Made by a program: the position numbers and the translations under genes. Shown here in pieces: positions 2,182 to 39,044 of a stretch of 40,153 bases of DNA (position 1 is its first letter; every line of letters begins with the position of its first letter). The notes beneath the pieces are model-generated. The model saw only the letters and a list, made by a program, of their open reading frames with translations, was not told the origin of the DNA and did no database searches. The stretch comes from a virus (taxonomy: Duplodnaviria; Caudoviricetes): positions 1 to 40,153 of the IMG/VR virus record IMGVR_UViG_3300037044_000263; one strand, 5' to 3'.

Positions 2182-2185
2182 GGCA

Positions 2186-6340: not shown

Positions 6341-6364
6341 GACTTTCAAACCCCCAGTTGTTGG

Positions 6365-14590: not shown

Positions 14591-16441
14591 ATGAACGTGA
14601 AAGTTGTCGGGCCGGGGGAGTTCAGGCCGATGCCGGGCGCGGTGATCGGCGTTGATTTCGAGACGTTCTATGACGGCGCGTACTCGGTGAAGGAACTGGG
14701 CAACTGGTCGTATGTGCATCATCCGCGGTTCAAGGCGTGGGCGGTGGCGGTGACGGACGGCGCGACGGCTTGCGTGTGCGAGCCGTCGGCGTTCCCGTGG
14801 GACCGTATTGACGGGCGCGAGTGGGTGAGCCACAACCGGGAGTTTGACCGCGCGGTGTTCAACCGGCTGCAGGAGTCGTTCGCGATCCAGCCGTACATCG
14901 AACCGGCGGTGTGGTTCTGCTCGGCGGCGGCGTGCGCGTTCCTCCAGTTGCCGCGTGATCTGCAGGGTGCGTGCAAGGCGGTGTTGGACTTGGAGGTCGA
15001 CAAGAGCTTGCGCGACATGAGCAAAGGTGTGCGCGGGTGCGGCGTGCCCACCCTCTTCGACCTCGACCTGTGCTATGCCGAAAAGGAGTATGCGGCGAAT
15101 GATGCGGTGATGTGCCTGGCGCTGTGGCGCGAGGTCGGGCCACGGTGGCCGGCGCATGAGCGGCGGCTGTTCGAGCTGACGTGCGACATGGGGCGGCTCG
15201 GGCTGTGTTTGGACTGGGAAACGGTGGCCGAGAAGAAACGGGAGTTGAATAGCCGCGTGGATTCGCTGGTGCGCGGGCTGCCCTGGACGCCCGCGCTGTC
15301 CGCGAAGAAGTTCAAGGCCGCTTGCCGGGAAGCGGGGATTGAGCCGCCGCACAGTTCGGCGGCGGGTGATGAGGCCTATCAGATGTGGGCCGACGATCAC
15401 GCGGGTACTGTGCCCGCGCAATGGGCTGCGGACATGTCAGCGATCCGGCGCTGCGGCCGGTTGGCGAATGTTTTGGAGGCGATGGAGGCGCGGCACAAGC
15501 CCGACGGGCGCATGGTGTATGAACTGAAGTATTTCGGCGCGTCGCCGGGGCGCTGGGCGGGCGGCGGCGGCCTGAACGTTCAGAACTTCAACCGCAAGGA
15601 GACCGAAGGGCTCGACGTTCGCAAGTGCATCATGGCCGCGCCGGGCCATGTGCTGGCGGTGGCGGATTATTCGCAGATCGAGGCGCGGGTGTTGCTGTTC
15701 CTCGCGGGCGACACTGCGGCGCTTGCGTTGTTGGCGGAGCATCCGGAGTGGGACATGTATGAGTTGCACGCTCGCGCAACGATGAATTACCGCGAGACGG
15801 AAAGCCTCAAGGATTTCTGCGAGCGGACGGGGAGCAGTCTGCGGCAGCTTGCCAAGGTGCGTGTGCTGGGGCTCGGGTTCCGGTGCGGGGCTGAGACGTT
15901 CATCCGCGTGGCGCGAGTGTTGGCCGGCATGAAGATCGGATTTGATGAGGCCAAGCGGATCGTGCGCGAGTACCGCGAATCGAATCCGAAGATTGTTCAC
16001 CTCTGGAATGCGCTTCAGGCGGCGGCGGAAATGTGCATCGGCGAAGAGGTGAACCAGTACGTGCTGCCTTTCCCCTGCACGCAGTACGACCCGCGCTGCG
16101 GGCGGTACCTGATCTACCGGGATGTTGCTTGGCATCCGCACGGGAAGTCGCTGACTGCGGTTGTCGGCGGTGAGCGCGTGCCTCTGCACGGCGGCATCAT
16201 CGCCGAGAACTGGACGCAGGGCACGGCGCGGGACGTGCTGGCGTCGGCCTGGCTGCGGTGCCGGTCGGCGGGGTACTCCCCTATCCTGACCGTGCATGAC
16301 GAACTGGTGTTCGAGGTGCCGGAAGAAACCGCTCGCGAGGATTTGAAGCGGATCGTGTCGATCATGGAGAAGCCGCTCGCGTGGGCACCGGGCCTGCCGC
16401 TGAAGGCTGACGGGAAGCTGATGAGCCGATATGGAAAATGA
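14591..16441 (+). CDS. polA: Phage family A DNA polymerase with 3'-5' exonuclease domain
   Basis: Exo motifs VDFET and HNREFD; motif A VADYSQIEARV; motif B RQLAKVRVLGLGF; motif C TVHDELV. Confidence 0.92.
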   Translation: MNVKVVGPGEFRPMPGAVIGVDFETFYDGAYSVKELGNWSYVHHPRFKAWAVAVTDGATACVCEPSAFPWDRIDGREWVSHNREFDRAVFNRLQESFAIQPYIEPAVWFCSAAACAFLQLPRDLQGACKAVLDLEVDKSLRDMSKGVRGCGVPTLFDLDLCYAEKEYAANDAVMCLALWREVGPRWPAHERRLFELTCDMGRLGLCLDWETVAEKKRELNSRVDSLVRGLPWTPALSAKKFKAACREAGIEPPHSSAAGDEAYQMWADDHAGTVPAQWAADMSAIRRCGRLANVLEAMEARHKPDGRMVYELKYFGASPGRWAGGGGLNVQNFNRKETEGLDVRKCIMAAPGHVLAVADYSQIEARVLLFLAGDTAALALLAEHPEWDMYELHARATMNYRETESLKDFCERTGSSLRQLAKVRVLGLGFRCGAETFIRVARVLAGMKIGFDEAKRIVREYRESNPKIVHLWNALQAAAEMCIGEEVNQYVLPFPCTQYDPRCGRYLIYRDVAWHPHGKSLTAVVGGERVPLHGGIIAENWTQGTARDVLASAWLRCRSAGYSPILTVHDELVFEVPEETAREDLKRIVSIMEKPLAWAPGLPLKADGKLMSRYGK

Positions 16442-16549
16442 GGCTCGGCGGTTACGCCGAGCAGGCTGTTAGCGGATTAGGCTGTAGGCTGTTAGGTGAA
16501 GCGGAGAGAGTTTCGCTAAGAGGACGCGAAGAACGCAGAGGAGATTCAT

Positions 16550-17491
16550 ATGGCGTGCGTGTGGCCATTTTCACAACGGACGGTTGAGTTGCTGTCGAGA
16601 CCGCCGGCGGCGGGCGAGACGCATGTGTGGTTGGCGCGTGCGGCGTGCGGTCTGCGGAACGCGCTGGCGCGAGAGCGTTGCGAAGAGTTCCTTCGTGAGG
16701 TCTGCCGGCGTTGGGTGAGCCACCGGCCTGTGCCCGAACGGGAGATCCTGGCGGCGGTGGCGCTGGCGTATGACGCGGACGCCAAGCGGGGACCGAGGAC
16801 AACCGCCGATTGGCCGGAAGTCAACCGGGATGCGGTCGCCGCTTGTCTCGACCGGGCGGATGTGCCGCTGTTGTTCGACCCGGCGACAGACACGGGGGTC
16901 GATGCGCGGGACGCGCTCTACGGTCTTTTCCGGCCGGGCGAGCTGGTCTGCGGCGGGTGGATCTGCGAGCGGCCGGTGGTGCAGTCGGTCGAGCGTTGGG
17001 CGGCACGGGCGGGGTCGGCGCAGTTCGTGGTTTCGAACCCGATGCGGGGTCCGACGGCGCTGACCAAGGAGGGCAAGCCGTCGGCGCGGTGCCAGGCCAA
17101 CGTGGCGGTGCGGCGCTGGGTCGTGGCGGAGTTCGACGGGCCGGAGGTGGACAAGCGGGCGCAAGCGATGCTCGCGTCCGTGCTGGCGCGGGGCCTGCCG
17201 CTCAAGATGGTCGTGGATTCGGGCGGCAAGAGCCTGCACTGCTGGTATGCGTGCGAGGGGCTGGATGAGCGCGAAGCGGCGCGGTTCTTCTGGGCGGCGG
17301 TGGCGCTGGGCGCGGACGCGACGCGCTGGGACCCGTGCGGGTGGGTACGCATGCCGGGTGGCGTGAGGCGCAAGGACGGCGGGGCGGCCGTCAAGCAGAA
17401 GGTCGTTTACTGGCGAGAGGGTGAGGTAACGTTCAACGTCCAACGTTCAACGCTCAACGCCGAAGTGGATTCGGAGGTCGTAAATGGATAG
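16550..17491 (+). CDS. Archaeo-eukaryotic-type (RepB'-like) primase
   Basis: VAEFD, VDSGGKSLHCWY and RMPGG motifs; directly upstream of and overlapping the helicase. Confidence 0.7.
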   Translation: MACVWPFSQRTVELLSRPPAAGETHVWLARAACGLRNALARERCEEFLREVCRRWVSHRPVPEREILAAVALAYDADAKRGPRTTADWPEVNRDAVAACLDRADVPLLFDPATDTGVDARDALYGLFRPGELVCGGWICERPVVQSVERWAARAGSAQFVVSNPMRGPTALTKEGKPSARCQANVAVRRWVVAEFDGPEVDKRAQAMLASVLARGLPLKMVVDSGGKSLHCWYACEGLDEREAARFFWAAVALGADATRWDPCGWVRMPGGVRRKDGGAAVKQKVVYWREGEVTFNVQRSTLNAEVDSEVVNG

Positions 17492-18842
17492 CAACCCGTT
17501 GGCACTGATTAAGACTTTCTTGCCGGAACAGGCGGCGGGGGCAGCCGAGAAGGCGGTGGCTCACCTGCCTGCCAAACGGCGGCTATCGAGTCCGCTGGTG
17601 CCGCTCGGGCAGTTCCCGGACCCGAAGCCGGAGGAGGAGAACCCCGCTGCGCTGTTCAAGCGGGGCTGGCTGCGCAAAGGCGGCGGCGCGTTCATCGTTG
17701 CGCCGTCGGGCGTGGGCAAGAGCGTTTTCACGGTGCAGGCCGCGATCTGCTGGTCGCTCGGCAAAGCGGCCTTCGGCGTGGAACCGGTGCGTCCGCTCAA
17801 GATCGCGGTGATCCAGGCGGAGGATGACCGCGAGGAGGTCGGCTACTTCCGCAACTGCGTGACGCGCGGGTTGGTGGACGAGTTCGGCTTCAGCGAGGCG
17901 GACATCCGGCTCGCGCTGGGTTGGGATGATCCATCAACCGCGCGGGTGTTCTTCCACAAGGCGGTCGGCAAGTGCGGGCAGGTGTTTGTCGAGGAGGTCG
18001 GGGCGCTGCTCGATGAGCGGCCCGACATCGACCTCGTGATCGTGAATCCCTTCCAGAGTTACTTCGGAGGGGATGTGAACAAGAACAACGAGCTGTCGGC
18101 CTTCTTCCGGATGTGGCTGGATCCTGAAATCAAAGATCCCGGCGACGGCGGCAATGACCGCGCGGCGGTGATGTTCATGCATCACACCAACAAGCCGCCG
18201 AACGCCAAGGAGCGCGAGGGCTGGGGCGTGGACATGTTCGCGGCGTACATCGGCGCGGGCGGCGCGGAGATCGTCAACTGGGCGCGTGCGATCCTCTCGC
18301 TCATGCCGACCAAGATCCCCGGCATGTTCCGGCTGTGCGCAGGCAAGCGCGGCCAGCGGTTGGGATGGGAAGACGTGAGCGGCAAGGCGAGCTACTGCAA
18401 GGTGCTGAAGCACGCGGAGAACGGAAACGTCTACTGGCGCGAGGGCACGCCGGAGGATGAGCGGGAACTGGGGATGACTGGTAATGGTGGGGATGGGGAC
18501 AAGGAGAAGGCCGACGGGAAGGCGGACCGGGGGATGATCGAGATGCTGCATGCCGTGGTTTGGGACCCTGGGCATGGGCCATACCATTACGCGGATGTCT
18601 TGTGCGCTGACAAGGAGGAGGGCGGACTCGGCGGGTCGCGCCAGACGGCACGCAACTATCTGTTCCAAATCACTGAAGGCGACCGTCGCGCGAGGCACGC
18701 GTGGGTTCAGGAAAAGGTCACTGATTTTGGCAGCCGGTTTTACCCGACCGAAGAGGGCCTGCGGGCGGCCATGGTGTACGGGGCGCGTCTCGACATGCGT
18801 GCTCTGTTCGGCAAGCAGACGGAAAAGGAGCCGGGTTTTTGA
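17484..18842 (+). CDS. RepA-like (AAA_25/SF4) replicative helicase
   Basis: Walker A APSGVGKS, IQAED, HHTNKP and NWARA motifs. Confidence 0.8.
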   Translation: MDSNPLALIKTFLPEQAAGAAEKAVAHLPAKRRLSSPLVPLGQFPDPKPEEENPAALFKRGWLRKGGGAFIVAPSGVGKSVFTVQAAICWSLGKAAFGVEPVRPLKIAVIQAEDDREEVGYFRNCVTRGLVDEFGFSEADIRLALGWDDPSTARVFFHKAVGKCGQVFVEEVGALLDERPDIDLVIVNPFQSYFGGDVNKNNELSAFFRMWLDPEIKDPGDGGNDRAAVMFMHHTNKPPNAKEREGWGVDMFAAYIGAGGAEIVNWARAILSLMPTKIPGMFRLCAGKRGQRLGWEDVSGKASYCKVLKHAENGNVYWREGTPEDERELGMTGNGGDGDKEKADGKADRGMIEMLHAVVWDPGHGPYHYADVLCADKEEGGLGGSRQTARNYLFQITEGDRRARHAWVQEKVTDFGSRFYPTEEGLRAAMVYGARLDMRALFGKQTEKEPGF

Positions 18843-20150: not shown

Positions 20151-20573
20151 TCAATCGAGGAGTTCGCCGAGCCTCTTGGGCGTGAAATATAGGTCCAGTT
20201 CGGCGCCGTTCTCGAGTAGTTCAGTGATTGAGATGTAACCCGCTTCCGGTCCCATGCCGAGGTCGGCAACTCCGAAGGCCTGCACCTGGCCCGCGTGGTC
20301 GGGGTCGGCGTCCTTCTCCACGATCCACCAGTCGCAACCGCTGGTGAAGTAGTGAAGCTGTGCGAGTGCGGCACAACCTTGGCCGTCGGTCTCGTAGGTC
20401 TTGGGCATGGCCTGCCACATGGCGTGAATGCGGTCGATGAGTTCGATGAAGTGGTCGCCTTCCTCGCCGAGCATGGCGTCGGTGATGACCTCGAATTGCT
20501 GGGGGGTGGTCAACAGTTTGAGCGTGTCGAGTTCGTGGGGCTTTTCGGGTGGCGTGTAGCGTTTGCGCTTCAT
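20151..20573 (-). CDS. DUF2958-like protein
   Basis: LHYFT..CDWWIVEKD, AFGVADLGMGPEAGYISITEL and ELDLYF pattern; GAAAGG RBS. Confidence 0.65.
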   Translation of the reverse strand: MKRKRYTPPEKPHELDTLKLLTTPQQFEVITDAMLGEEGDHFIELIDRIHAMWQAMPKTYETDGQGCAALAQLHYFTSGCDWWIVEKDADPDHAGQVQAFGVADLGMGPEAGYISITELLENGAELDLYFTPKRLGELLD

Positions 20574-20593
20574 GGTGTGATTTCCTTTCGGGT

Positions 20594-20833
20594 TTAGGCG
20601 GGTTGGGCTTCGATCTCAAGCGGCAGGTTGCGCTCGTCGGCCATGCGTCCGGCAAGGGCGGCGGCGAACGCGAACGATTTGCGGACGGTGTACACCTTGC
20701 CGGCGGGCTCGCTGTCAGCGTCGGCGGCGTATACGTACCATTGCGGGATCTCGTCGCCGCTGACGCGGTCAACGTCGGCGTCGGGGCCTTCAAAACGGAT
20801 CTGGGTTGCCTTGGGTTTCTGTGTGGTGCTCAT
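20594..20833 (-). CDS. Hypothetical protein (79 aa)
   Basis: AGAAAGG RBS before ATG 20833; part of a tightly packed operon. Confidence 0.6.
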   Translation of the reverse strand: MSTTQKPKATQIRFEGPDADVDRVSGDEIPQWYVYAADADSEPAGKVYTVRKSFAFAAALAGRMADERNLPLEIEAQPA

Positions 20834-21100
20834 GGTGGCCTTTCTACCCGCGAACGATGCCCACGGGCGGGCGCGGTGTTTAGTCGGCGAGGGCGTCAAG
20901 CTGGGTCAAGTGATGCTTGGCGATTGAAATCGCTTCGCGGTAGCGCGTGCGGTTGGGCTCGCGCTCGTGGGCGATTGACAGGACGGTCTCAAGCTGATGC
21001 ATGAGGGCCTGCCACTTCTGATTGAATTCGGGATGCTTCGCGGGTGTGTTCATGGCTGCCTTTCTGCCCGCGCACGATGCCCACGGGCGGGCGCGTGTGC
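20831..21100 (-). repeat. Two copies of a ~50-bp intergenic element (20831-20880, 21051-21100)
   Basis: 41 of the first 45 nt are identical. Each copy spans stop-to-start and includes a GC hairpin, the RBS and the ATG. Confidence 0.9.
20880..21053 (-). CDS. Hypothetical protein (57 aa)
   Basis: AGAAAGG RBS before ATG 21053; flanked by the two repeat copies. Confidence 0.55.
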   Translation of the reverse strand: MNTPAKHPEFNQKWQALMHQLETVLSIAHEREPNRTRYREAISIAKHHLTQLDALAD

Positions 21101-21601
21101 TCATTCAAAAGCGACGAGGTTCTTTTCGCGCAGGCTGACATAGCCGGGGGTTTGCTCGCTGGGCCTGCCGCATATCACATGGTCAACGATGCGGATGCCG
21201 AGAATCTTCGCGGCTTCGACCAGTCGGCGGGTGATGTCGCAATCCTCCTTGCTGGGGGTCGGGTCGCCGCTGGGGTGGTTGTGGGCCAAAATCACGCTGG
21301 CCGCGCTCTGCCTCACGGCTTCGCGCATGACCTCGCGGGGATGTACGGGGCACTGGTCAAGCAGGCCTCGGCAACATTCGACCGGCGAGCCTATGACCTT
21401 GTTTTTCGTGTCGAGCAGGAGCGTGAAAAAGGTCTCCTGAGAGTCGCCGGACGTGGCGGCGGTCATGACCGGCCGCAACAGGCGGTAAGCGGTCTCGGGG
21501 TCGCGTACGGCGGGGTTCTTGACTGCCACATAGGCGGCGCATGCCTCCATCGCGGCGGCGTAGTCCATGGCGAGTGCGAGCGTGTCGGGGTTGCGTTTCA
21601 T
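21101..21601 (-). CDS. radC: RadC-like JAB/MPN domain protein
   Basis: QETF..LLLD, VHPREV, HNHPSGDPTPSKED and IVDHVI motifs. Confidence 0.9.
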   Translation of the reverse strand: MKRNPDTLALAMDYAAAMEACAAYVAVKNPAVRDPETAYRLLRPVMTAATSGDSQETFFTLLLDTKNKVIGSPVECCRGLLDQCPVHPREVMREAVRQSAASVILAHNHPSGDPTPSKEDCDITRRLVEAAKILGIRIVDHVICGRPSEQTPGYVSLREKNLVAFE

Positions 21602-21619
21602 GGTGTGGGCTCCTTTCTG

Positions 21620-22153
21620 TCAGTCGTACGGGTGGAAAGAGGCGTCGCCGAAAACAAGGCCGGTGCCGAATCCGAGGGCCTCTGAACAGGCGCGGATGGT
21701 GTTTCCGCTGGTGATTACGTTGTCGATGATGAAGGTGCGGCGGCAGGGTATGGGCTTGCCTTCCTTGCGCGTGATGTTGTGCTCGGCCACGCTCACGGGC
21801 GCGCCCTTGGTGCGGTGGCGGTCGCAGGCGCTCGGGGCGGGTTCGGTGCGTGTGAGGATGTCCAGAACGTCGGCCCCGCCTTTGACGTGGGCGGCGATAG
21901 CCTTCGCAAGTCTGCGGTTGGCGGTGGTGTCGCCGGTGTGGTCGGGGGCGGGTATGAGGTGGCAAGGCCCCCACACCAGCGCGGCCATTTCGGCGGCGGC
22001 TACCTGCAAAGCGGCCTCGGGGCAAGCGGGGTCTTTGAGCATGTAGGACAGGCCCCGCGTCTCGCGCTCGAACTGGTTCAGCGGGCGTGTGCGGGGTGAC
22101 ACGTAGCGGCGTGCTGCGCGTGTGGTGCGATACGGGTTAAACGTGGCGCTCAT
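21620..22153 (-). CDS. ComF-like phosphoribosyltransferase-fold protein
   Basis: LIPAP and PRPP-loop IIDNVITSGNTI; AGAAAGGA RBS before ATG 22153. Confidence 0.7.
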   Translation of the reverse strand: MSATFNPYRTTRAARRYVSPRTRPLNQFERETRGLSYMLKDPACPEAALQVAAAEMAALVWGPCHLIPAPDHTGDTTANRRLAKAIAAHVKGGADVLDILTRTEPAPSACDRHRTKGAPVSVAEHNITRKEGKPIPCRRTFIIDNVITSGNTIRACSEALGFGTGLVFGDASFHPYD

Positions 22154-22384: not shown

Positions 22385-22905
22385 GAAGTTGTGCAGCGTT
22401 CAGAAACGGCGGATTGCAGACAGGACGGTGATGGCGTGTCCGGCACGTGGGGATTGCGGAAGCGGACGGTCAGGAGGGACGGATGACCGGGAGCCTGCCA
22501 CGAGACGCGCCGTGTGCAACGGGCATGACAAAGGCGGTAGCCCGCCGCCGCGAGTATTCGAAGCGTTGGCGTGACCGAGTGCAATGGCGCGGCGTCGGTG
22601 ACGGACTTAGGCATGAGTGGCGATCAAAGGCGGGAACGGGTGCCGCCGGGAGGGTTTGGGGGGAACCTCCCAAGCCGAGCCCCGCAGGGCTGCCGCGCAG
22701 CGGAACCCCGCGTGCAGTGAACGCGGGTGAAGCTGTAGAGCCGCATAATTTTGCGGCGTTATCCTTTTCCGAGTGAGCGGCTTTCGCCCCCGTTAGCGAC
22801 ACTTGCGGGAGGGATGCGGACTAGCCCGCTCGTGGCGCGTCGGGGCGCGAATGCGCGAGCGAGGATCACCGCGCTTAACTGGCGCGGTAGCTTACATTGA
22901 TGCTG

Positions 22906-24558
22906 GCCGGGCGCGGTCTGGCGGCAGCCGATGCTGACGGCGGATGTGCGGGCTGGGGCGTGTATCCACGCGCAAAGACCGCGCTCCGGCGGCACGGCTG
23001 CCACCGTCCGCGCCCGGCGCTGTGGCAGGCGCTCTGACGCAGGCGGCGGCTGCCACACTGGGGAAGTGGAATATGGCGGCGGGCGCGGCGGAATCCGAAA
23101 CGGCTTGCCGCCACGGTCGCTTGCGACTTTCGGAGTTCCGACGCGCCTTCCGCCGTGATGCCGCTGCGGCAAACGCCGGCGGTGACCGTACGGTACGGCG
23201 ATGGCTGTCGCACGGGCGCTGGGTCTTATCTTCCCGAAACGCCCGTGCGGCAAGCCATTGCCGTACCGTATGGCTGCGAAGCAGCGCCGCGCGTGATAGC
23301 CCGTGTCCATGCCCAGTGGCGGGCGCTCGACGCGAAGCGACGGCGGCTGCCACACTGGGCACACGGAAAATGGCGGCGTGCGCACAGGCACGCAAGGAGC
23401 CTGCGACGCTGCGGGCCGGTGCGCTGGCCGACGAAACGCCACTGCGGTAAGCGAGCGGCGGCGACCGTACCGGTCCGGATGACGGTCGGCTGCAACCAAG
23501 CGTAGCGACTGGCACCGCCCGGCAAGGCCTGCACACGTGCGCTAGGGATTATCATCCGCGCAACGCCGTGTGGCAGGCCGGTTCCGGAGCCGGTATGGCG
23601 TGCGAAGCACGCGCCGCGAGTGTGAGCGCGTGTCCGTGTTCGTGGCAGCCGTTAGGGATGCCACACTGGGAATTGGAAAGCGGCGGCGGGCCTGCCACAG
23701 CGACACCGCAACAAGCTTGCGCAGTGAGGATGGCGTGTGGCAGGCCTTCCGCCATGATGCCAACGCGTAACGCCCGCCGGTGACCGTACCGAAGAGCAAC
23801 GACGGTGATGCCTGGAGGTAACGCAGGCGGTCCTGTAGTCAGGCCGACTGCGTGGACGTAAGGCGTTCACCGGAAGGTGCGATGCAGGTATGGCGTGCGA
23901 ATGCACGCGGCGGAAGCGTGGAGCCCGTGGCCATGCGGGGCGTCTGGTATCGGGGGGAGCCGGCGAGATCGCCCCGCCTGTAGCCGGGCGGGGAAGCTCG
24001 ACGCGGGGGGGTGTGTCACCCGCCCCCAGTGGTTGTTCATCAGCTGTTCGTTGTTCCGGATCTGTTCATTACTCTGCGGGTGTAGGATGGGTCGCGGGAA
24101 GGAGAGGGCGCGGCGTGGCGGCAGCCGGCACTGACGGCGGGCGTGCGGGCTGGGGCGTGTATCCACGCGCAAAGCCCGCGCCCCGGCGGCACGGCTGCCA
24201 CCGCCCGCGCCCGGTGGCGTGGTGGCAGGCGCTCGACGCGAAGCGGCGGCGGCTGCCACACTGGGGATGTGAAATGCGGCGGCGAGCGCATCCGGCACGC
24301 AAGGAGCTTGCGACGCGGCGGCCGGTGCGCTGGCCGACAAGATGCCGCTGCGGCAAACGAGCGGCGGGGACCGTACCGGTCCGGATGCGGGCGGCTGCCA
24401 CCAAGCGGCAGCGACTGGCAACGCACGCAAGGCCTGCCACACGTGCGCCGGGTGGTATCTCCGCTCAACGCCGTGTGGCAGGCCGGTGCCGGAGCCGGTA
24501 TGGCGTGCGCAAGCACGCGCCGCGAGTGAGAGCCCGTGGCCGTGTCGTGTGGCAGCCG
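22906..24558 (+). ncRNA. Array of repeated structured elements (B1 22906-23018, A1 23047-23325, A2 23344-23651, A3 23657-23951, B2 24106-24212, A4 24250-24558); putative structured ncRNA or ssDNA elements
   Basis: Conserved blocks GCCACACTGGG, GACCGTAC and GTATGGC(G)TGCG in all four A units; terminal stems covary; G-U pairs read on the + strand; no credible ORF. The repeats are certain, but RNA status is inferred. Confidence 0.55.
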
Positions 24559-25157
24559 GCGAAGCGCAGCGGCGCGGCTGCCACAGGTGGGTAAGCCCGC
24601 GAAAACCGAGCAGGAGGCAGGAAGACGGGCGTGCGAGTCGCGCGAGCCGCCCGGCTGACTGCCGGATGCGCGGTGCCCGGAACCTGGAGCCCGAACGCTG
24701 CCCGAAGGGTGCCGCCGGGCTTAGGCGGCACCCGCTCCCCCCAGAACAGCCGCCGTCTTCACAATAGGCGGCTGTCGAGCCCCCGGAAAGCCAGCCTTAT
24801 GAGGGGGGTTCGCGGGGGTTCGGGGGCGGCGGGGGGAGCGGGCTGCCGGGCGGGCGATCAGGGCATCCGGGCGCGGGCGCGAGGGGTTCGGGGAAACGTC
24901 CCCGAGCCACTGCGTAGCGGAGCGGAGCCGTGCATGGGAACGCACTGCCCGTAGCCGGGCATGTGCGGAAGAAAAGGCCCCGGTGCGCGAACGAGGGGAC
25001 GGCGCCGGCACCCTCGGAAGCTCGGCGGTACTCCGCCGAGATCGCCGAGAGGTGCCAGAGCCGCCGAGGAGACAGCGTATCCGCTGGCTCCGAGGTCGCC
25101 CCGAGGCTCGCGCTGGGGCCGCTGGAGTGAGGGCGTGCTGACGAGGCCGAAGCCGCA

Positions 25158-25875
25158 GGCAGCCCGCTATCCTGCGGGCTGCCCGCCGCTATCCGCGGCG
25201 AAGTGCGGCGAGGCAGAGGAAGCATGCCCGAGCGTGTCAAGGGGGTTTGGGGGGATGTGCCCCCCTAGCCTACAGTATTGCGACGAGGGGGAAGCCAAGC
25301 TGCCCGTCTCCGCCCGCTATCTGCGGGCGTGGGCAGCGCAGGCTAGCCGGGGGACCCGGCCATCTCCGCCGCTATCCTGCGGCGTGGCCCGCCGCTGGCA
25401 GCGCCGCGCCCTGCCGACCAGCGAAGCGGGAGGCAGGGCTGTCTCCGGCGGTGCAGGCGGGCCGGCTGGGGCGGCGGCCCCCGAGGAGCTCTTGCTGGCC
25501 GGGAAGTACGACGCGGGGACACAACGGTCGTGCGGGCAAAGAGGCCTGCTTGCCCCGCGCTATCCTGCGCGGGGTGCAGGCCGATGCAGGGGCGCAGTGT
25601 CCGCCGCTATCCTGCGGCGTGCGCCCCGGTCGGGACGGGTTGAGGGCGTCGCGGCCTCGGATCGCCAAAAGGTCGCCCTGGCGACCGCCGTCATAGAAAC
25701 CCGGAACGCAGCCGCGCCTCCCCGCCCGCTATCCTGCGGGCGTGCGCGGCGTCGGTGGGTTCTCCTTCGGGCGAAGCCCGATTAAGGTGCCGTGTCCCCC
25801 GCCGCTATCCTGCGGCGGCGGCACCGGTGCGAGTGAGCCGCCCCCCTTTCCCCGCCCGCTATCCTGCGGGCGTGG
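25158..25875. repeat. Nine GC-TATC(C)(T)-GC hairpin repeats upstream of terS
   Basis: GCTATC at 25166, 25188, 25316, 25371, 25559, 25606, 25728, 25804 and 25858. Seven are exact GCTATCCTGC, each with complementary GC flanks. Confidence 0.92.
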
Positions 25876-25954
25876 GGGGCGGCGAACGAGGTTTGGGGGT
25901 GTTAGTTTCGATCTCACTATGTTGATCGGGTGTCTTTTTTAGGAGGTGGTTGTC

Positions 25955-26260
25955 ATGGCTTTGTTTGAAAAAGGTGTTTCGGGTAATCCCGTCGGTCGAC
26001 CGAAAGGTCTTCTCACGGGCCGCGCCAAGGCTTTGTATGCGCTGGATCAGGTTGTCAGCAAGGAAGAGAACATCGAGTTGATCGAAGGTGCGCTGGAAAA
26101 GACGCTGCGTGAGAAACCCATGTGGTTCTTCATCAACGTGATCATGCCTCTTCTGCCGAAAGAGACCAAGGGTGTCCTTGAGACCGGCGACCGTGTGATT
26201 GAGTGGAAGAGCCTGGTGTCGGCTGCCACAGAGGCCGATGAGCAGCTTGAACGGACCTAA
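25955..26260 (+). CDS. Terminase small subunit-like protein (DUF5681-like)
   Basis: FEKGVSGNPVGRPKG motif, AGGAGG RBS, directly upstream of terL. Confidence 0.72.
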   Translation: MALFEKGVSGNPVGRPKGLLTGRAKALYALDQVVSKEENIELIEGALEKTLREKPMWFFINVIMPLLPKETKGVLETGDRVIEWKSLVSAATEADEQLERT

Positions 26261-26263
26261 CCA

Positions 26264-27532
26264 ATGCAGATCGACTACACACCACATGCCTCTCAACAGT
26301 TGATCCACAATGCCCGCGACGCCAGGTTCCGGACGATTTGTACGGGCCGCAGGTTCGGCAAGACTCTTTGTATGGCGGCGGAGTTGCTGGATCGGGGCGG
26401 CGGCGAGATCGGCGGCGACTACGGCTGGGTCGCGCCGACATACGGTGTGGCAGAGCGCGGTGTCGAGGCCTTTCGAACTATCGCGCCTGATTTTGTGAGA
26501 GTCGTCGGTCGCATGCCGACCAGAGTGGAGTTCGAGGGCGCAAAGGGACCGTGCCGGGTGTGGATGCTGAGTGCCGACAATCCTGATTCCATTCGCGGCT
26601 TCGGGTTCCGGGGTCTTGTGATCGATGAGGCGGCCGCCGTACCGGTGGATGTGTGGAACTACGCCCTGCGGCCGACACTCGCGCAGACGCTCGGCTGGGG
26701 TGTGTTCATCTCCACCCCCGCCGGCCGCAACTGGTTTTACGACATGTTCACGCGGGGTGTCGAGCGTCAGGATGGATTCCGGTCGTTCACCTTCCCATCA
26801 AATGTGTCGCCTTACTTTCCGGCGAAGGAGTGGGAAGAGGCCCGCCGCACGCTGCCTGAAGATGTGTTCCGGCAAGAGTACATGGCCGAGTTTCTGGAGG
26901 ATTCGGCGGGCGTGTTCAGGGGTGTGGATGGCTGTCTTGTGGCAGCCGGTGATGAGTCTCTCACAGAAACACAGCGGAGAACGGTGATTGTCGGGTGTGA
27001 CATCGCCAAGCATACCGACTGGACGGTGTGTATCTCGATAGATGCGAAGACAGGGCTGTGTCTCGAAATCGAGAGGTTCAATCAGTTGGACTGGCCTGTT
27101 CAACGGGAGAGGATCGCCGCGTTTGTGAAGCGGTGGCAGGCCCGGCTTGTGATGGACGCCACAGGTGTCGGTGACCCTGTCTTCGATGATCTGCGGCGAG
27201 TGCTGCCACACGTCGAGGGGTTCAAGATCACCGCACAGACCAAGCGCGAGCTTGTGCAGGGCCTCATGGTGGCAGTCGAGCAGCGCCGCGTGATGTGGCC
27301 TGCCACATGGGACGTGCTGACGGCGGAGATGAAGCGGTATGAGTACGAGATCGGCCCGACCGGGCAAGTCTCTTACGCAGCGCCGTCTGGGTATCATGAT
27401 GACTGCGTGATGGCATTGGCGCTCGGCGTGTGGGGCTGCCACACGTTCGGCGTGGAGCCGGGAAGGATGCTGAGGCTAAACGCGAGATTGAGGGCAGAGG
27501 TCAGCGGACGGAGGTCGGTGACGTTGGCGTAA
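26264..27532 (+). CDS. terL: Terminase large subunit
   Basis: GRRFGKT Walker A, VIDEAA Walker B, ISTP coupling motif, and nuclease motifs GCDIA, MDATG and HDDCVMALAL. Confidence 0.93.
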   Translation: MQIDYTPHASQQLIHNARDARFRTICTGRRFGKTLCMAAELLDRGGGEIGGDYGWVAPTYGVAERGVEAFRTIAPDFVRVVGRMPTRVEFEGAKGPCRVWMLSADNPDSIRGFGFRGLVIDEAAAVPVDVWNYALRPTLAQTLGWGVFISTPAGRNWFYDMFTRGVERQDGFRSFTFPSNVSPYFPAKEWEEARRTLPEDVFRQEYMAEFLEDSAGVFRGVDGCLVAAGDESLTETQRRTVIVGCDIAKHTDWTVCISIDAKTGLCLEIERFNQLDWPVQRERIAAFVKRWQARLVMDATGVGDPVFDDLRRVLPHVEGFKITAQTKRELVQGLMVAVEQRRVMWPATWDVLTAEMKRYEYEIGPTGQVSYAAPSGYHDDCVMALALGVWGCHTFGVEPGRMLRLNARLRAEVSGRRSVTLA

Positions 27533-29637: not shown

Positions 29638-29842
29638 TAATACTCCTTTGTGAGCGTTGACAGGCGTCGAAGTTCGAGGAGCCCTGGGTGCTAACTTCAA
29701 CGCGTAACCTCACGCTTACCGCTTTCCCACCTCGGTGATCTAGAGTGTAACTCTATTCTGTTGCCGGGCAAGCATGAAAATCTATGGGGTTGAATTCTCA
29801 CGCACGTGTGTTGAATCCGCACCTATATTAGGAGGCGCGGAT

Positions 29843-30895
29843 ATGGCATTGACGGTATACACGAGCAAAGATAACCAGTGGCGGGAGTATGTGAACCCGC
29901 TGCGGGGCATGACGCTGGACCGAATCGTCCAACTCATCGAGCAGGGCGAGCGCGGGGCTTTCGCGGATCTCCAGTGGTTCTATCAGGCCATGGAGCGTTC
30001 TGACGCGCTGATCGCCACCGTGCTGATGCGGCGGCGGGCTGCGCTGCTGTCCTGTGAGTGGCACGTAAGGCCGGAAGAGAAGCCGACCGACACGGTTCTC
30101 GCCATTGAACAGGCTGCGTATCTGCGTAATCAGTACGACCGGGTGGAGAACCTGCGCGAGGCGGTTGCCTTTCTGTCTTCGGCGTCTTTCCGGGGATTCG
30201 CCCATGTTGAGAAGCACTACTCCGATAACGGTGGGGGTGTTGTCCGGCTCGAACCGGTGGAGCAGTGGTTCTGGTGCCGCGAAGGGATGTTCGGAGAGTG
30301 GACTTACAACCGCGACGCTCGCTCGGGTGTTGAGAAGGGTGAGCAGATCGAGCGGAGCAACTTCGTGGTGGTCGAGTCCCCTATCGCCCTCGACCGAATC
30401 CTAGCCGTGCAGTACTTCCGACGCAATCTGGCTCTGCGTGACTGGAGTTCGTTTCTCGATGTGTACGGCATCCCGTCGATGTTCTTCATCGGGCCTCCGG
30501 GTGTGACGGACGAGAAAGAGAAGCAGTATCTGGCCATCGCTCAGGATCTCGTGAAGGACGGGCGCGGCTATCTGCCCAATGGCACGGATGTCAAATATGT
30601 GAACGGCGGCGGCACAGGCAAGCCGCCTTTTCGGGATAACCTGGACTATCTCGACAGGCAGATCACGCTGCTCGGCACCGGCGGTCTACTGACCATGCTG
30701 ACCGAGAGCGGCAGCGGCACGCTGGCCGGCAACGCGCACCAAGAGGCGTTCAATCAGGTGGCGAAGGCCGATGCGGTGATGGTATCCGAAGCGCTGCAAC
30801 GGGACTTCGACGCACCATTGCTGGCTGCGGCATTCCCCGGCTGGCCGGTGGAGGCGGGGTTTGAGTTGAAGATGGAGGAGGCTACTGTTTTGTAG
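29843..30895 (+). CDS. Portal protein (Mu gp29/DUF935-like)
   Basis: RRRAALL, GFAHVE, W..FLDVYGIP and GSGTLAGNAHQE motifs; AGGAGG RBS; follows terL. Confidence 0.82.
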   Translation: MALTVYTSKDNQWREYVNPLRGMTLDRIVQLIEQGERGAFADLQWFYQAMERSDALIATVLMRRRAALLSCEWHVRPEEKPTDTVLAIEQAAYLRNQYDRVENLREAVAFLSSASFRGFAHVEKHYSDNGGGVVRLEPVEQWFWCREGMFGEWTYNRDARSGVEKGEQIERSNFVVVESPIALDRILAVQYFRRNLALRDWSSFLDVYGIPSMFFIGPPGVTDEKEKQYLAIAQDLVKDGRGYLPNGTDVKYVNGGGTGKPPFRDNLDYLDRQITLLGTGGLLTMLTESGSGTLAGNAHQEAFNQVAKADAVMVSEALQRDFDAPLLAAAFPGWPVEAGFELKMEEATVL

Positions 30896-30996
30896 ACGAC
30901 ACCTCGAAATTGCTTAAATTGTAGAGGGCGTTAGGATGTCTAAACATATTCAGTGGAGGAGTTGAAACTTGACCTGACTGCGCTAACGCGCAGGCA

Positions 30997-31803
30997 TCAA
31001 TATGGTGCTTGAAAGTCAATCTCTAGACGGTCTTTCGTCAAAGATTCATTAAGAATGCGATAAAAGCCCGGATTTGCTTTTTGGCCTGCCGTTAGCAATA
31101 CATTCTTTGTTGAGCATATCTCGCCGATTCTTGTCAGGAGATAAGCCCTTGCTTCAAGCCCCTTGCCCACTATTGAAATCTTGCCTCGTCGGGTGTTGTC
31201 ATCGTAAATTAGACTTTCGCTTTGTTTGTTAGTGGCCTTGTCTAATAGGGTTTTTGAGGACACTTCTTTTTCAAATTTATGAACGGCATCTTCAACAAGA
31301 TAAACCAAATTGTCTAGCCCTTTTGGTCCTCTCACTGTTTTATCTTTGTCTAGTAGTAAATCATAAATGGTATATGTCAGGTCTCCGTTGTTGACCAGCA
31401 GGTATCTGAACCCGTGATCTCGGGAATATTTTAAATATGTTGAGGCTTGTTTTGAGGCCACGGAATCAAAAATGCCGGATGTCTCAAAGGCATGAGCTAC
31501 TCCAGCAAAGTCGTTTTTCAAGAACCGCAGTAGATAGTCTTGTTGCCACGGCTGCAGGAATGAACCCGTAACAAAAGGCGGCGACAAGAGCACTTCATCC
31601 AAAGGCACACTTATTAGCAGGGAACCTCCATAGTGACTGGATGGTTCAATGCGAGAAATCTGGTAGGCAAACATCTCTTTTTGGTAATTGAAGGCTGCGG
31701 TTGGTGAATAGAATGTTCTTCCACTCACACTGTATGAACGGCAACCTGACAGGTTTAATGCGCCTATAACGAGAGCGAAGCAAGCCCGATTGTTCAGTGT
31801 CAT
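30997..31803 (-). CDS. Moron: predicted lipoprotein
   Basis: Signal peptide with lipobox LSGC; visibly AT-richer than its neighbours; antisense to the head operon. Confidence 0.7.
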   Translation of the reverse strand: MTLNNRACFALVIGALNLSGCRSYSVSGRTFYSPTAAFNYQKEMFAYQISRIEPSSHYGGSLLISVPLDEVLLSPPFVTGSFLQPWQQDYLLRFLKNDFAGVAHAFETSGIFDSVASKQASTYLKYSRDHGFRYLLVNNGDLTYTIYDLLLDKDKTVRGPKGLDNLVYLVEDAVHKFEKEVSSKTLLDKATNKQSESLIYDDNTRRGKISIVGKGLEARAYLLTRIGEICSTKNVLLTAGQKANPGFYRILNESLTKDRLEIDFQAPY

Positions 31804-31924
31804 TTGTCAAACCTTACCCAGAATAATTCTGATTCAGATTCAAAATAGCAGACAAAGATGTGAACTTCAAGACTGGCAAAGCATGTAATAGTTGATTTCG
31901 AGCCTTCTTATGGAGGGTTCGATA

Positions 31925-32836
31925 ATGGGCGACAAAGATTTCATGTTGGCCGGAGACGGCTGGGTACAGGTGACGCCGTGCGGGGAATTCCCACATGTCG
32001 GGGCGGGTGTCACGCAGGTCATCGACCGCGAGGCGTGCGACAGGATCGCGGCGGATTTCAACGGCCGCAAGTCTGATCCCAATTTCCCCGGTGTTCTGGT
32101 GGACTTCGATCACTTCTCGCTGGATACGGAGAAGTCGAGCGAGGCCGCCGGCTGGATTTCCGATCTGGAGTCTCGCGATACGGGGCTTTGGGCTCGCGTG
32201 CGTTGGTCGGATGCCGGCCTGTCTGCTGTACGCGGCGGCCGGTTTCGTTTGATGAGCCCTGTCTTTCCCCCACCGTCCGCGTGCGAGGAGCTGGGCGGCG
32301 GCAAGATCCGGCCGGTCATGTTGGTGAGCGTGGCGCTGACCAATGAACCCAACATCCGGGGCGGTCGGCCACTGGCCAACCGCCAGTTAGGAGTTAGGAG
32401 TGAGGAGTTAGGAGTTGAGAATCGGGGCGGCGGGGCGAAGAAATACCGGTGGGTGTTGGGCAATCCCCCCAGCGGCGAGCATTGCGGCGAGTGTGTCTCG
32501 CGGGCGGGACAGGTGAAAACGGCTCAGGAATGGGCGGCGATGAAAGCGCCGCCGTGCAACTGCCACTGTTCGCTGGAAGAAGTGGACGATGAGACCGCGA
32601 ACCGCTGGACAAACGTTGCGCGGGCGGCGTCGCTTGCGGTGAGGCAGGCGAAGGCGGCTAGGAGAAAGGCTGAAGTCGGAAGCATGAAGGATGAAGGTGT
32701 GACTGGGGATGTGTCACGCGGAGACGCGGAGGCCCGGAGGAAACAGGCTGCTCGGGCGGCGGTGATGCGGGAGTTGGCTGAGAAACGCTCAACTTTCACC
32801 GCTCAAGCGAGGGAAGAGTTGAAAACGAAATGTTGA
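31925..32836 (+). CDS. Mu-like prohead protease (gpI) with C-terminal Cys/His-rich extension
   Basis: LVDFDH, AAGWI, GLWARVRWS, SPVF and SVALTNEP motifs; GGAGG RBS before ATG 31925. Confidence 0.85.
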   Translation: MGDKDFMLAGDGWVQVTPCGEFPHVGAGVTQVIDREACDRIAADFNGRKSDPNFPGVLVDFDHFSLDTEKSSEAAGWISDLESRDTGLWARVRWSDAGLSAVRGGRFRLMSPVFPPPSACEELGGGKIRPVMLVSVALTNEPNIRGGRPLANRQLGVRSEELGVENRGGGAKKYRWVLGNPPSGEHCGECVSRAGQVKTAQEWAAMKAPPCNCHCSLEEVDDETANRWTNVARAASLAVRQAKAARRKAEVGSMKDEGVTGDVSRGDAEARRKQAARAAVMRELAEKRSTFTAQAREELKTKC

Positions 32837-32885
32837 TACTTGGCGTTAGATGTAGGGCGGTTGAATCATTCTACAGGAGGGTCTT

Positions 32886-33398
32886 ATGGGCGAAGAGGTC
32901 AAGAAGGTTGAAAGCGGCGCGGTTCCGGATGATCGCGTGAAGTCGCTGGAGGAGGCTTTGGCGACTGAGAAGGCCAAGAACGAGGTCCTGATGGAGCAAA
33001 TCCTCAAGTCGGAGAACAGTCTCGCCGAGAAGGATGTCGAGGGTTTTGCGGATGTGATCCCGAATGAGGATCGCGGGTTCTGGCGTGGGCAGTTTCTTGA
33101 GAACCGCGAGGCGGCGGTCGGCATCCTGAACCGGATGCGCGAACTTGTAAAGCCTGCCGCGAAGACCGAGGCTGCCCCAGCCGCAGTGGCAGTGCCCCCC
33201 GTGGCGGTGCCGCCGGTCGCTGTGACAAAGCCGCTGCACAACCGCGAGACGGCGAAGCCTGCCGTGGCCGAGAAGGGTGCGGCGGGCGGCGGAGACCGGG
33301 CTGCGAAGTTGCGTAACCGCGCGCAGGAGATTTCGCGGCGCGACGGGTGCTCGTTCACGGTGGCGTTCCGCGCGGCGGAGCAGGAGATTGCGGGATAG
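32886..33398 (+). CDS. Putative capsid scaffold protein
   Basis: Coiled-coil, Ala/Pro-rich protein between the protease and capsid genes; AGGAGG RBS. Confidence 0.6.
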   Translation: MGEEVKKVESGAVPDDRVKSLEEALATEKAKNEVLMEQILKSENSLAEKDVEGFADVIPNEDRGFWRGQFLENREAAVGILNRMRELVKPAAKTEAAPAAVAVPPVAVPPVAVTKPLHNRETAKPAVAEKGAAGGGDRAAKLRNRAQEISRRDGCSFTVAFRAAEQEIAG

Positions 33399-33455
33399 GG
33401 AGTACGCTCAACGTTGAACGTTCACCTTTCAACGCTCAAGTGATGGAGGAAAATA

Positions 33456-33881
33456 ATGAGCCAGAGTGATACCAGAAGCGGAACGTTCCGCGTGCTCGCG
33501 GGCGAGGATCTGACGGACAAGAAGGGTTACCTTGCCGTGTTGACGCATGATACGGGCGTTCCGGAAGTGAAACTGCCGGCTTCGGTCGACGCGTACGCGT
33601 TCTACCTGGTCGATGACGGCGGGGCTGACGCGGCGTATGTGGACGTGGAGCCGCTTGAGGCCGGGCGCAACGTGCGCGCGGTCCTGAAGGGGACGTGCAA
33701 CCCCGGCGACGTGCTGGTGTTGGCGGATACGGGCACGGCGGCGGACAAGGGCAAGGTGCGGGCGCTTCCGTCTGCGGCGGGGACGTACCGCGGCCTCGCC
33801 GTTGCGGAAGAGAAAGGCGCGGACGGTCAGCTGGTGCTGTGCCGCCCGGCGATGATCGGTAACGTGACGGTGTCGGAATAG
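33456..33881 (+). CDS. Capsid decoration/cement protein (DUF2190-like)
   Basis: AGEDL...GTCNPGDVL...G.A.E.GADGQLV pattern; located just before the major capsid gene. Confidence 0.62.
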   Translation: MSQSDTRSGTFRVLAGEDLTDKKGYLAVLTHDTGVPEVKLPASVDAYAFYLVDDGGADAAYVDVEPLEAGRNVRAVLKGTCNPGDVLVLADTGTAADKGKVRALPSAAGTYRGLAVAEEKGADGQLVLCRPAMIGNVTVSE

Positions 33882-33908
33882 ACCGGGGTTGATACGGAGG
33901 GTGATGGA

Positions 33909-34811
33909 ATGTTGAACATGAAACAGAGCGACTGCCGTTTCGGCGGTGTGGGGTTCGCGGCGGGAGAGGACCTGTCGCTGAAGGCGGGGCACCTCGTGAA
34001 GCTGAACAGCGGCGGCGACCTGGTGCTGCCGGCTTCGGCGGCCGACATCACGCCGTATGTCGTGATCTGCGGCGCGGATACGGGTTACCTGTGCGGGGCG
34101 GTGCCGCTCACGAGCGCGGGCAACTGCCGGGTCAAACTGGCGGGGACGTGCGAGGCGGGCGACCTTCTGGTGGCGAAGGGCGACGGCCGCGTGGAGGCCG
34201 GAGTGATCGGCGGCGAGGCGCTGCCGGTCGGCATGGCCGAAGAGAAGGGCGTGGAAGGGCAGCATGTGCTGCTGCGTCCGCTGTGCGTCGGCGCACGCGG
34301 CGCCGCTGGGGCGGCAGGCGCGGCGGGTGCTCCCGGTGCGAACGGTGCGACGGGTGCGACGGGTGCCGAGGGACCCCAGGGCGAAACCGGGATGGACGGC
34401 GGCGCTTTCCATGTGCCGGTGAGCCTGATCGCGAACGCCCCTGCCGGTAATGACTTGATCGGGCTGATCCTCGCGGTTTTTGCCGGCCCCGCGTTTGACG
34501 CGTATCCCAACGTAGGCACCCCTGTCGCGTGGGTTGTCGTGTCCGGGCTGACGGTGATCGACGGAACCGCTTACGCGGTCTGCTGGAAACTGTGGCAGGC
34601 CAGTCCGCCGGACAATACGGAGGTGATCATGCCTGTTTCCGTGATCGCGCCGGGCGCTCTCACGACCGAGGTCAGGGCCGTGCAGATCCCGGAGACGGGT
34701 TATTGCCGCCTGTCGAGGGATGATTCCGCCATCATGATGGGGTCCGTCGTGCTGAAGGTGGCGAGTGTGTCCGGAACCAAACTGCTTGGTTTTACCTTTT
34801 ACAGTGTTTAA
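33909..34811 (+). CDS. Decoration-protein paralogue with collagen-like stalk and C-terminal domain (head fibre)
   Basis: The N-terminal ~130 aa align with the upstream gene (QSD.R.G.....AGEDL); 12 consecutive G-X-Y triplets follow. Confidence 0.65.
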   Translation: MLNMKQSDCRFGGVGFAAGEDLSLKAGHLVKLNSGGDLVLPASAADITPYVVICGADTGYLCGAVPLTSAGNCRVKLAGTCEAGDLLVAKGDGRVEAGVIGGEALPVGMAEEKGVEGQHVLLRPLCVGARGAAGAAGAAGAPGANGATGATGAEGPQGETGMDGGAFHVPVSLIANAPAGNDLIGLILAVFAGPAFDAYPNVGTPVAWVVVSGLTVIDGTAYAVCWKLWQASPPDNTEVIMPVSVIAPGALTTEVRAVQIPETGYCRLSRDDSAIMMGSVVLKVASVSGTKLLGFTFYSV

Positions 34812-34837
34812 CCGGGTCTAACAGGAGGATGAGATAA

Positions 34838-35776: not shown

Positions 35777-35791
35777 GGGCGGGGTGCGGAA

Positions 35792-38829: not shown

Positions 38830-38968
38830 GTGCTTTTCCTTTCGCTAAGGTGCGTGGAAGTTCCTCTTGCGACAAGAACAGTGTCCCAAAAACGTCCCAA
38901 AATGTCAAGAGGCATCTGGAAAGCGACACGGTTATAGAGTCTTAAACACTTTATAACAAGCAATTTAA

Positions 38969-39044
38969 GCCAGCATAGCTCAGTTGGTAGAGCACTTGAT
39001 TTGTAATCATGAGGTCATCGGTTCGACCCCGATTGCTGGCTCCA
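38969..39044 (+). tRNA. trnT: tRNA-Thr (TGT)
   Basis: 76 nt cloverleaf: acceptor GCCAGCA/TGCTGGC, D arm GCTC/GAGC, anticodon loop TTTGTAA, T loop TTCGACC, encoded CCA. One U-U mismatch in the anticodon stem. Confidence 0.95.

What the first reader, a model, noticed from the sequence alone, without database searches (positions are those of the whole stretch)
23047..24558. Four ~300-nt covarying structured repeats with a constant scaffold and two variable arms: candidate new ncRNA array
Seen: A1-A4 (279, 308, 295, 309 nt) each run GCCACACTGGG..GAA..GGCGGCG-[variable arm 1]-GCC..GACCGTAC-[variable arm 2]-GTATGGC(G)TGCG.AGCA(C)GCG..GTG..AGC.CGTG.CC.TG. The closing stem covaries (cggctgccac/gtggcagccg in A2 and A4; gatgcca/tggtatc in A3). 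CCGTAC pairs with GTATGG through a conserved G-U. A flanking helix flips in A3 (ccgccg/cggcgg vs gcggcg/cgccgc). Arm 2 of A1 is a ~30-bp hairpin with G-U pairs. This points to selection on + strand secondary structure, and I recognise no known family. Inference: a phage-encoded multi-copy structured RNA (decoy/anti-defence RNA, packaging or scaffold RNA upstream of terminase, or scaffold-plus-variable-guide RNA), or ssDNA promoter/priming elements for the adjacent cassette.
Basis: partly seen in the sequence, partly recalled or inferred. Interest (0 to 1): 0.86.

Follow-up and report, generated by a model that had tools for sequence, protein, structure and literature searches.

The report
Single-strand DNA hairpin array in prophages
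Four 300-base repeats, part of a gene-free 3.7-kb hairpin tract beside the packaging genes of a prophage-like element with head genes but no recognisable tail genes, carry hairpin loops typical of folded DNA rather than RNA, so they likely act as signals on one DNA strand while it is single-stranded, a state not expected for an element that would package double-stranded DNA.

Summary
The four repeats are real. They belong to an undescribed family: 33 distinct full units aligned, no Rfam, plasmid or phage match. The inner three-way junction and arm-1 base covary; the closing stem covaries only weakly. The arms are shuffled self-pairing alleles, not guides. The units are part of a 3.7-kb non-coding hairpin tract between a leftward RadC/PRTase-like cassette and terS, in an integrated element with head genes and an adaptor but no tail gene found. 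The loops favour DNA over RNA: one conserved hairpin has DNA-only stable loop types in 41 of 55 contexts, GNRA in 3, UNCG in 0; an rRNA control shows the reverse bias. One host genome carries the tract in three element architectures, always on the template strand of the cassette. A non-homologous tract with the same bias sits at the same place in distant relatives. Best reading (0.5): single-stranded-DNA priming/early-expression signals (sso/ssi/Frpo-like). A long structured RNA stays possible (0.3); RNA contigs cover the tract without a unit-specific peak. No relaxase was found, so how the strand becomes single is open. Entry through ComEC fits all polarities but is untested.

The parts
23044..23322 (+). 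Unit A1 (short arm 2; GAA triloop hairpin at 23278)
23341..23652 (+). Unit A2 (TATC loop at 23550, GAA triloop at 23604)
23652..23952 (+). Unit A3 (flipped junction helix; GAAT loop at 23899)
24247..24560 (+). Unit A4 (GCAA loop at 24509)
24361..24523 (+). Conserved three-way junction shown on A4: helix 24361-66/24518-23, helix CCGTAC 24371-76 / GTATGG 24498-503 at the base of arm 2, short hairpin 24504-17
22905..23030 (+). B1 long hairpin with TATC loop (22963), ahead of A1
24102..24230 (+). B2 long hairpin with TATC loop (24160), ahead of A4; 89% like B1
25165..25869 (+). Seven C hairpins (stem-TATCCT-stem) ahead of terS; 0.01 expected by chance
25767..25781 (+). 6-bp hairpin with c(GAA)g triloop, also seen in L013 and L082
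22214..25945 (+). Whole GC-rich hairpin tract (64-73% GC); I treat it as non-coding, the ORFs listed over it being GC-rich shadow frames (inference; a frame test was lost with the script machine)
20151..22150 (-). Leftward cassette templated by the structured strand: PRTase-like ORF (21620-22150; a lead only), RadC/JAB (21101-21601), two small ORFs, DUF2958-like ORF (20151-20573; below Pfam cut-off)
25946..27532 (+). Probable terS (DUF5681) and terL
29774..36277 (+). Head module with cargo genes interspersed: Mu-like portal, protease, major head protein, and a 161-aa adaptor-like protein (35792-36277); no tail gene found up to the integrase
14591..18842 (+). Replication module: family A polymerase, AEP-fold primase (16550-17491), AAA_25 helicase
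37570..39044 (.). Tyrosine integrase (- strand) next to tRNA-Thr (+ strand); att repeat not found in the window

Best explanation
The repeats are modules of a 3.7-kb hairpin tract on the + strand that likely folds as single-stranded DNA and likely serves as a bank of priming and early-expression signals (sso/ssi/Frpo-like) when that strand is exposed. Shown: the repeats, the covarying junction, the strand-specific loop bias, the fixed polarity (structured strand = template of the leftward RadC cassette = sense strand of terS), and the sharing of the tract among unlike elements in one host. Inferred: the folded junction and TATC-loop hairpins resist SSB and are bound by a host enzyme (primase or RNA polymerase) or by the AEP primase of a co-resident element; synthesis then runs leftward along the + template, making the second strand and transcribing the cassette first. 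Copy number changes by recombination between modules. How the strand becomes single (entry into a new cell, or strand-displacement/rolling-circle replication) is not shown.
For: (1) Junction hairpin: 41 of 55 distinct contexts carry cGNAg, cGNABg or cGNYAg loops, 3 cGNRAg, 0 UNCG, 11 other; 13 of 23 distinct loop sequences are in DNA-stable classes, switching between triloop and tetraloop. (2) Over 17 tracts (56,522 nt; 383 distinct hairpins with 5 or more Watson-Crick pairs): DNA-only loops 32 on +, 5 on -, 7.0 in shuffles; RNA-only loops 2 against 3.3; TATC loops 26 against 0.7. (3) E. coli rRNA control gives 18 GNRA/UNCG against 4 DNA-type. (4) GCGNAGC 13 on +, 0 on -; TATC 17 on +, 1 on -, 13 of the 17 in hairpin loops. 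(5) Units are opposite to the cassette in 17 of 17 elements where both were seen (window plus 16 read by eye; related, not independent). (6) Same tract with Mu-type heads, SU10-type heads, and an element with no head gene seen, within G001, which points to a host or trans-acting reader. (7) A non-homologous tract at the same position in L033 and L113 has GCGNAGC 17+/1- and 12+/0-. (8) Such mini-hairpins are far more stable in DNA than RNA and occur at G4, ssiA and N4 initiation sites (PMC13037366, passages).
Against: No ssDNA phase is shown. No MOBP, MOBQ, MOBF or Rep_trans protein in 5 of 5 hosts tested each (incomplete genomes). A VirD4-type coupling protein is in 5 of 121 family genomes, none among the six array carriers visible in the listing. 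Only 1 sigma-70-like site in the region, on the - strand, against 0.4 expected. CS-6 is not conserved. With G.T pairs allowed, GNRA loops are also enriched on + (34 against 8). The F leading region was not a clean positive control and the mismatch spectrum did not discriminate. RNA-library contigs cover the tract. Several relatives (L014, L045, L097, L129, L136) have the cassette next to terS with no tract, so it is not obligatory. Loop counts come from related copies.
Confidence: 0.5

Rival explanations
1. The tract is transcribed rightward as a long structured RNA (or processed 300-nt units) acting as a protein sponge or anti-defence decoy through UAUC loops.
For: Invariant G.U pair and many G.U-tolerant pairs on +. 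GNRA enriched on + when G.U is allowed. 8 of 24 listed runs are on record as RNA. In biofilm run X2 summed contig depth is mostly 230-1550 over 22.25-26.0 kb and 10-103 beyond 26.0 kb, while probably-DNA run X7 is flat at 3-37.
Against: Loops at the conserved hairpin are DNA-type, with no UNCG. No unit-specific peak; X6 and X19 show no excess of the tract over the cassette. Contig depth cannot rank genes and the tract is multi-copy per genome. No + strand promoter match. No Rfam hit.
Confidence: 0.3
2. The modules are mainly recombination or selfish repeats (PeSL/CUP-like shuffling cassettes, names recalled) that expand, contract and exchange cargo, with folding as a by-product or a minor regulatory role.
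For: Copy number ranges from one to at least four full units, arms are swapped and units truncated; cargo genes lie between modules in L065 and G001:C62; many relatives lack the tract.
Against: Both-sided flips are never mismatched at pair 146/328 (33/33); loops are confined to stable classes; polarity is fixed; a second family converges on the same features. No terminal repeat or linked transposase was seen in the annotated flanks.
Confidence: 0.12
3. The tract is a cis site for DNA processing: C hairpins as terminase (pac) boxes or as nick sites for mobilisation by a relaxase in trans (their core resembles a MOBP nick site; resemblance recalled), with A units as the accompanying sso.
For: Seven C hairpins directly ahead of terS, also present in L033; sso upstream of a nick site is the rolling-circle layout (PMC10378824, passages).
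Against: Same hairpins precede unrelated terminases and occur in the element with no head gene seen; loop variants keep TATC but not the longer core; no relaxase found.
Confidence: 0.08

Closest known systems
Frpo / ssi single-stranded promoters and priming signals of plasmid leading regions (PMC11541004, passages)
   Same: Structure on one strand, upstream of small anti-defence-type genes, several copies per element
   Different: No -35/-10 consensus in the stems, no sequence match in 72,556 plasmids, no relaxase or oriT shown; branched 300-nt junction; sits in capsid-encoding elements
Single-strand origins (sso) of rolling-circle plasmids and ICEs (PMC10378824, passages)
   Same: Long imperfect hairpins, strand-specific, plausibly read by host enzymes and so portable among replicons
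   Different: No Rep/dso found, CS-6 not conserved, tandem multi-module tract of 3.7 kb
DNA mini-hairpins at phage G4 origin, RSF1010 ssiA and N4 early promoters (PMC13037366, passages)
   Same: GCGNAGC-type loops; the window encodes an AEP-fold primase with RepB' among its structural neighbours
   Different: Those are one to three short hairpins read by a known enzyme; here dozens, shared by elements with other replication modules; no N4-type RNA polymerase seen
Capsid-forming PICIs (bioRxiv 10.1101/2025.02.11.637232, search listing only)
   Same: Integrated element with terminase, portal, protease, capsid and adaptor but no tail gene found
   Different: About 27 kb, own polymerase/primase/helicase, PVC host, ssDNA-type tract; tail hijacking untested
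Large prophage ncRNAs such as GOLLD, ROOL, HEARO (names recalled)
   Same: Structured, covarying, in prophage intergenic DNA
   Different: No Rfam match, GC-rich, DNA-type loops, shuffled arms, narrow host range

Membership tests
Frpo/ssi | Strand-specific stem-loop on the strand exposed as ssDNA | tested here: met
   (structure only; exposure itself not shown)
Frpo/ssi | -35/-10 hexamers within the stem | tested here: not met
   one site, on the - strand, 0.4 expected
Frpo/ssi | Located in the leading region of a conjugative or mobilisable element (relaxase, oriT) | tested here: inconclusive
   No hit for four relaxase/Rep families in 5 incomplete hosts each; coupling protein in 5 of 121
Frpo/ssi | Priming or transcription on ssDNA | not testable with these tools
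   needs bench assay
sso of rolling-circle plasmids | CS-6 in a terminal loop | tested here: not met
   Present in A2 (one search list, 23500) but varied across 33 units
sso of rolling-circle plasmids | Linked Rep and dso | tested here: inconclusive
   None among the ORFs scanned; several ORFs stay unassigned
Rfam ncRNA family | Match at gathering score | tested here: not met
Structured ncRNA (any) | Discrete transcript from the structured strand | tested here: inconclusive
   contigs only, no strand, ends or level
Scaffold-plus-guide arrays (CRISPR, bridge RNA, TIGR) | Unique variable segments matching targets, and an adjacent effector | tested here: not met
   Arms recur as alleles; 78 of 545 arm hits fall outside the masked arrays, 13-19 nt except one 27-nt hit in a locus fetched with this very sequence; no effector among ORFs scanned
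MITE | Dispersed copies in either orientation with terminal repeats | tested here: not met
   Fixed position and polarity; target duplications were not searched for
cf-PICI (the carrier element) | Integrase plus head genes and adaptor, no tail genes | tested here: met
cf-PICI (the carrier element) | Uses tails of helper phages; PICI gene order and size | not tested
   no helper identified

The most novel reading that the evidence does not exclude
These tail-less elements deliver their DNA to the periplasm and enter through the host ComEC channel as one strand, as RcGTA DNA needs ComEC/ComF (PMC12378983, passages). [quoted passage not shown] The tract would then be a purpose-built landing pad that primes second-strand synthesis and drives the RadC cassette as the strand emerges: a self-propagating capsid element with a plasmid-like ssDNA leading region. 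All three polarities fit. ComEC is in 4 of 5 hosts but also 10 of 14 controls, and relatives without the tract argue against a strict need.
Probability: 0.12. Interest if true: 0.9.

Novelty: new variant of a known kind. Interest (0 to 1): 0.66.

Why it matters
It would add a large, modular, covarying ssDNA structure family to a short list, and place it where none is expected: in terminase-packaged elements. It implies an unrecognised single-stranded phase in the life cycle of a diverse group of head-only elements of PVC bacteria found in wastewater, biofilm and lake samples. It also gives a practical warning: covarying repeats in prophages can be DNA motifs, and loop class is a cheap test. 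If it is RNA instead, it is still an undescribed multi-copy structured RNA.

Tried and rejected
Rfam at gathering score (window; L033, L113, L083, L165) and by E-value: only a tRNA and generic hairpin hits far below cut-off. blastn of the tract against 72,556 plasmids and 50,697 phages: no match. Pattern scans of viral contigs: 10 of 11 loci were chance; some searches returned only contigs already known plus two single matches (L141, L142) without an HMM hit. Wider host search: strong matches in 11 of 201 family genomes (8 more weak), 2 of 401 class genomes, 3 of 150 order genomes; only a few candidates per genome were scored, so these are lower bounds. The C-hairpin 14-mer in 15 other genomes of the phylum was single; the 14 I viewed lay outside any hairpin tract, mostly in ORFs. 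A MOBQ-like oriT reading of a hairpin in relatives was dropped: it is one arm of a long stem and absent from the window. Group II intron domain 5, ribozyme and tmRNA resemblances were considered from memory and dropped (no Rfam or ARAGORN hit). Mismatch spectrum and the F leading-region control did not separate DNA from RNA. Read laying depth cannot show expression. Sequence searches of the primase against PDB found nothing; Foldseek gave no significant hit for the 161-aa protein. L013's third unit holds a poly-C stretch, likely an assembly fault, and was left out of the 33-unit alignment, as were four units with divergent ends (L112, L160, L171, L172) and one arm-deleted unit (L189, second). 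A scripted table of arm combinations and a frame test were not obtained. Paper searches found no description of this family or of ComEC-dependent entry by a self-propagating element; the library lacks most subscription papers and I read no supplements, so motif catalogues there may bear on novelty. Three look-ups of earlier findings returned nothing.

Full report
Observation. The four units are present at the stated place and fold better than shuffles on both strands. Related loci came from viral contigs, genomes and metagenomes. From 87 extracted units, 38 were distinct at 97.5% and 33 were aligned; five divergent or deleted ones were left out. On a structure I drew from that alignment, 87.7% of cells pair, against 28-53% when partners are slid (relatedness inflates such counts). 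The core is a three-way junction. One helix is 99% paired and flips on both sides in 12 of 33 units. The CCGTAC/GTATGG helix is almost invariant, with a G.T pair in 33 of 33. A short hairpin completes it. The arm-1 base is 90.7% paired with six two-sided pairs. The closing stem is 72.5% paired, and the A3 'covariation' is a module junction.

Context. The window is a 40-kb virus record. From about 12.5 to 39 kb it holds an integrated element: polymerase, AEP-fold primase (Foldseek best hit S-2L PrimPol, E 9.7e-4; RepB' E 0.023), helicase, a leftward cassette with RadC, then the tract, terS/terL, Mu-like portal, protease, capsid, an adaptor-like protein (Mu neck subunit, Z 8.1, rmsd 3.8, 106 aligned, with neck proteins filling the top rows), and an integrase beside tRNA-Thr. 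No tail gene was found. Relatives lie in genomes labelled mostly Verrucomicrobia, Lentisphaeraceae, Kiritimatiellales and Pontiella; I infer a Kiritimatiellia host. The family is narrow: strong matches in 11 of 201 family genomes.

The units are part of something larger. Between 22214 and 25945 the + strand carries B hairpins, seven C hairpins and other modules. TATC occurs 17 times on + and once on -, 13 times in hairpin loops. GCGNAGC occurs 13 times on + and never on -. In genome G001 units lie on seven contigs: with Mu-type heads (C25, C78), with SU10-type portal and DnaB (C45, C46), and with integrase, excisionase-like and polymerase-like genes but no head gene among those scanned (C29). 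Wherever both were seen (17 of 17 related elements), units are on the strand opposite the cassette genes; they share the strand of terS. Copy number and arm alleles vary, and a minimal unit with both arms cut short exists. Several relatives have no tract. Lake relatives L033 and L113 have a different tract, matching the window's only at the C hairpin, with the same strand bias and, in L033, six g(TAGT)c loops.

DNA or RNA. d(GNA) triloops with a C:G closing pair are very stable in DNA (PMC3201870, passages). The DNA tetraloop classes cGNNAg and cGNABg I take from the title of Nakano et al. 2002 in that paper's reference list; I did not read that paper. Mini-hairpins are much less stable as RNA, where GNRA and UNCG prevail (PMC13037366, passages). 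At the junction hairpin, 41 of 55 contexts are DNA-only types, 3 cGNRAg, 0 UNCG. Across 17 tracts DNA-only loops are 32 on + against 5 on - and 7.0 in shuffles; RNA-only loops are 2 against 3.3. E. coli rRNA shows the opposite bias, 18 against 4. Against this: GNRA loops are enriched on + too when G.T pairs are allowed (34 against 8, beside 64 DNA-type), the F leading region was not a clean positive control, and copies are related. RNA-library contigs cover 20-26 kb with no unit-specific peak; one of the two biofilm runs laid (X2) shows the tract far above terL while a probably-DNA run is flat, but contig depth cannot rank genes and the tract is multi-copy.

Mechanism. I commit to single-stranded-DNA signals (0.5). 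The structured strand is the one that would template both second-strand synthesis and the cassette, with the tract upstream of it, as for Frpo/ssi ahead of leading-region genes (PMC11541004, passages; that paper words the orientation as genes 'encoded on the T-strand', so I do not lean on it for polarity). Sharing among unlike replication and packaging modules argues for a host or trans-acting reader rather than a cognate origin or pac site. The units fail Frpo and sso membership tests (no hexamers, CS-6 not conserved, no relaxase or Rep found), so they work like, but are not, those elements. The source of the single strand is the open step. Replication by the element's primase and helicase is one route. 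Entry through ComEC is the boldest: GTA DNA needs ComEC/ComF (PMC12378983, passages) and the 3'-leading strand is passed (PMC12455585, passages), which would be the + strand if the tract is the last-packaged end (packaging direction assumed from lambda/P22-type phages, recalled). It is untested.

Verdict. Real, structured, undescribed in the libraries and papers searched. More likely a DNA structure than the ncRNA array proposed; guide and packaging-RNA ideas are disfavoured. New variant of a known kind, interest 0.66. Papers seen only as listings or not used: PMC8632094 (two passages), PMC11784430 (one reference passage), the cf-PICI preprint (listing).

Noticed in passing
window 22-10850 (-): BREX-type defence genes (PglZ, BrxC, BrxP with PAPS reductase domain) and a RAMA-domain protein next to the element
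   Followed up: partly
L033 981-4180; L113 558-1938; also L108-L111, L114, L117, L120: Second, non-homologous hairpin-tract family between cassette and terS, with g(TAGT)c loops and repeated GTGGCAGGTG; no Rfam hit in L033 or L113; deserves its own alignment
   Followed up: partly
G001 contigs C1, C25, C29, C45, C46, C62, C78 (C hairpins also on C24, C28): One genome carries at least seven tract-bearing elements of three architectures, some with restriction-modification cargo: a dense community of head-only and capsid-less elements
   Followed up: partly
window 27541-29700 and 30997-31803; same slots in relatives: Reverse-strand, lower-GC cargo genes at fixed slots after terL and after the portal; spacing differs among relatives
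   Followed up: no
window 16550-17491: Unannotated 313-aa family (170 homologues) with AEP primase fold and an N-terminal helical domain
   Followed up: yes
window about 20845-20880 and 21055-21100 (-): Two near-identical repeats of about 40 nt ahead of the two small cassette ORFs, possibly shared regulatory or recombination sites
   Followed up: no
L083 7840-8840; L112; L178: Repeated purine-rich block (GGGGTGTAGGAGAGAG...GGTGTGGAACAC) beside a variant A unit
   Followed up: no
L045, L097, L129, L136, about 100 nt ahead of terS: Tract-less relatives keep a single long hairpin between the cassette and terS, perhaps the minimal form of the signal or an operator
   Followed up: no
L013 8020-8120: Poly-C stretch inside the third unit, probably an assembly fault
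   Followed up: no
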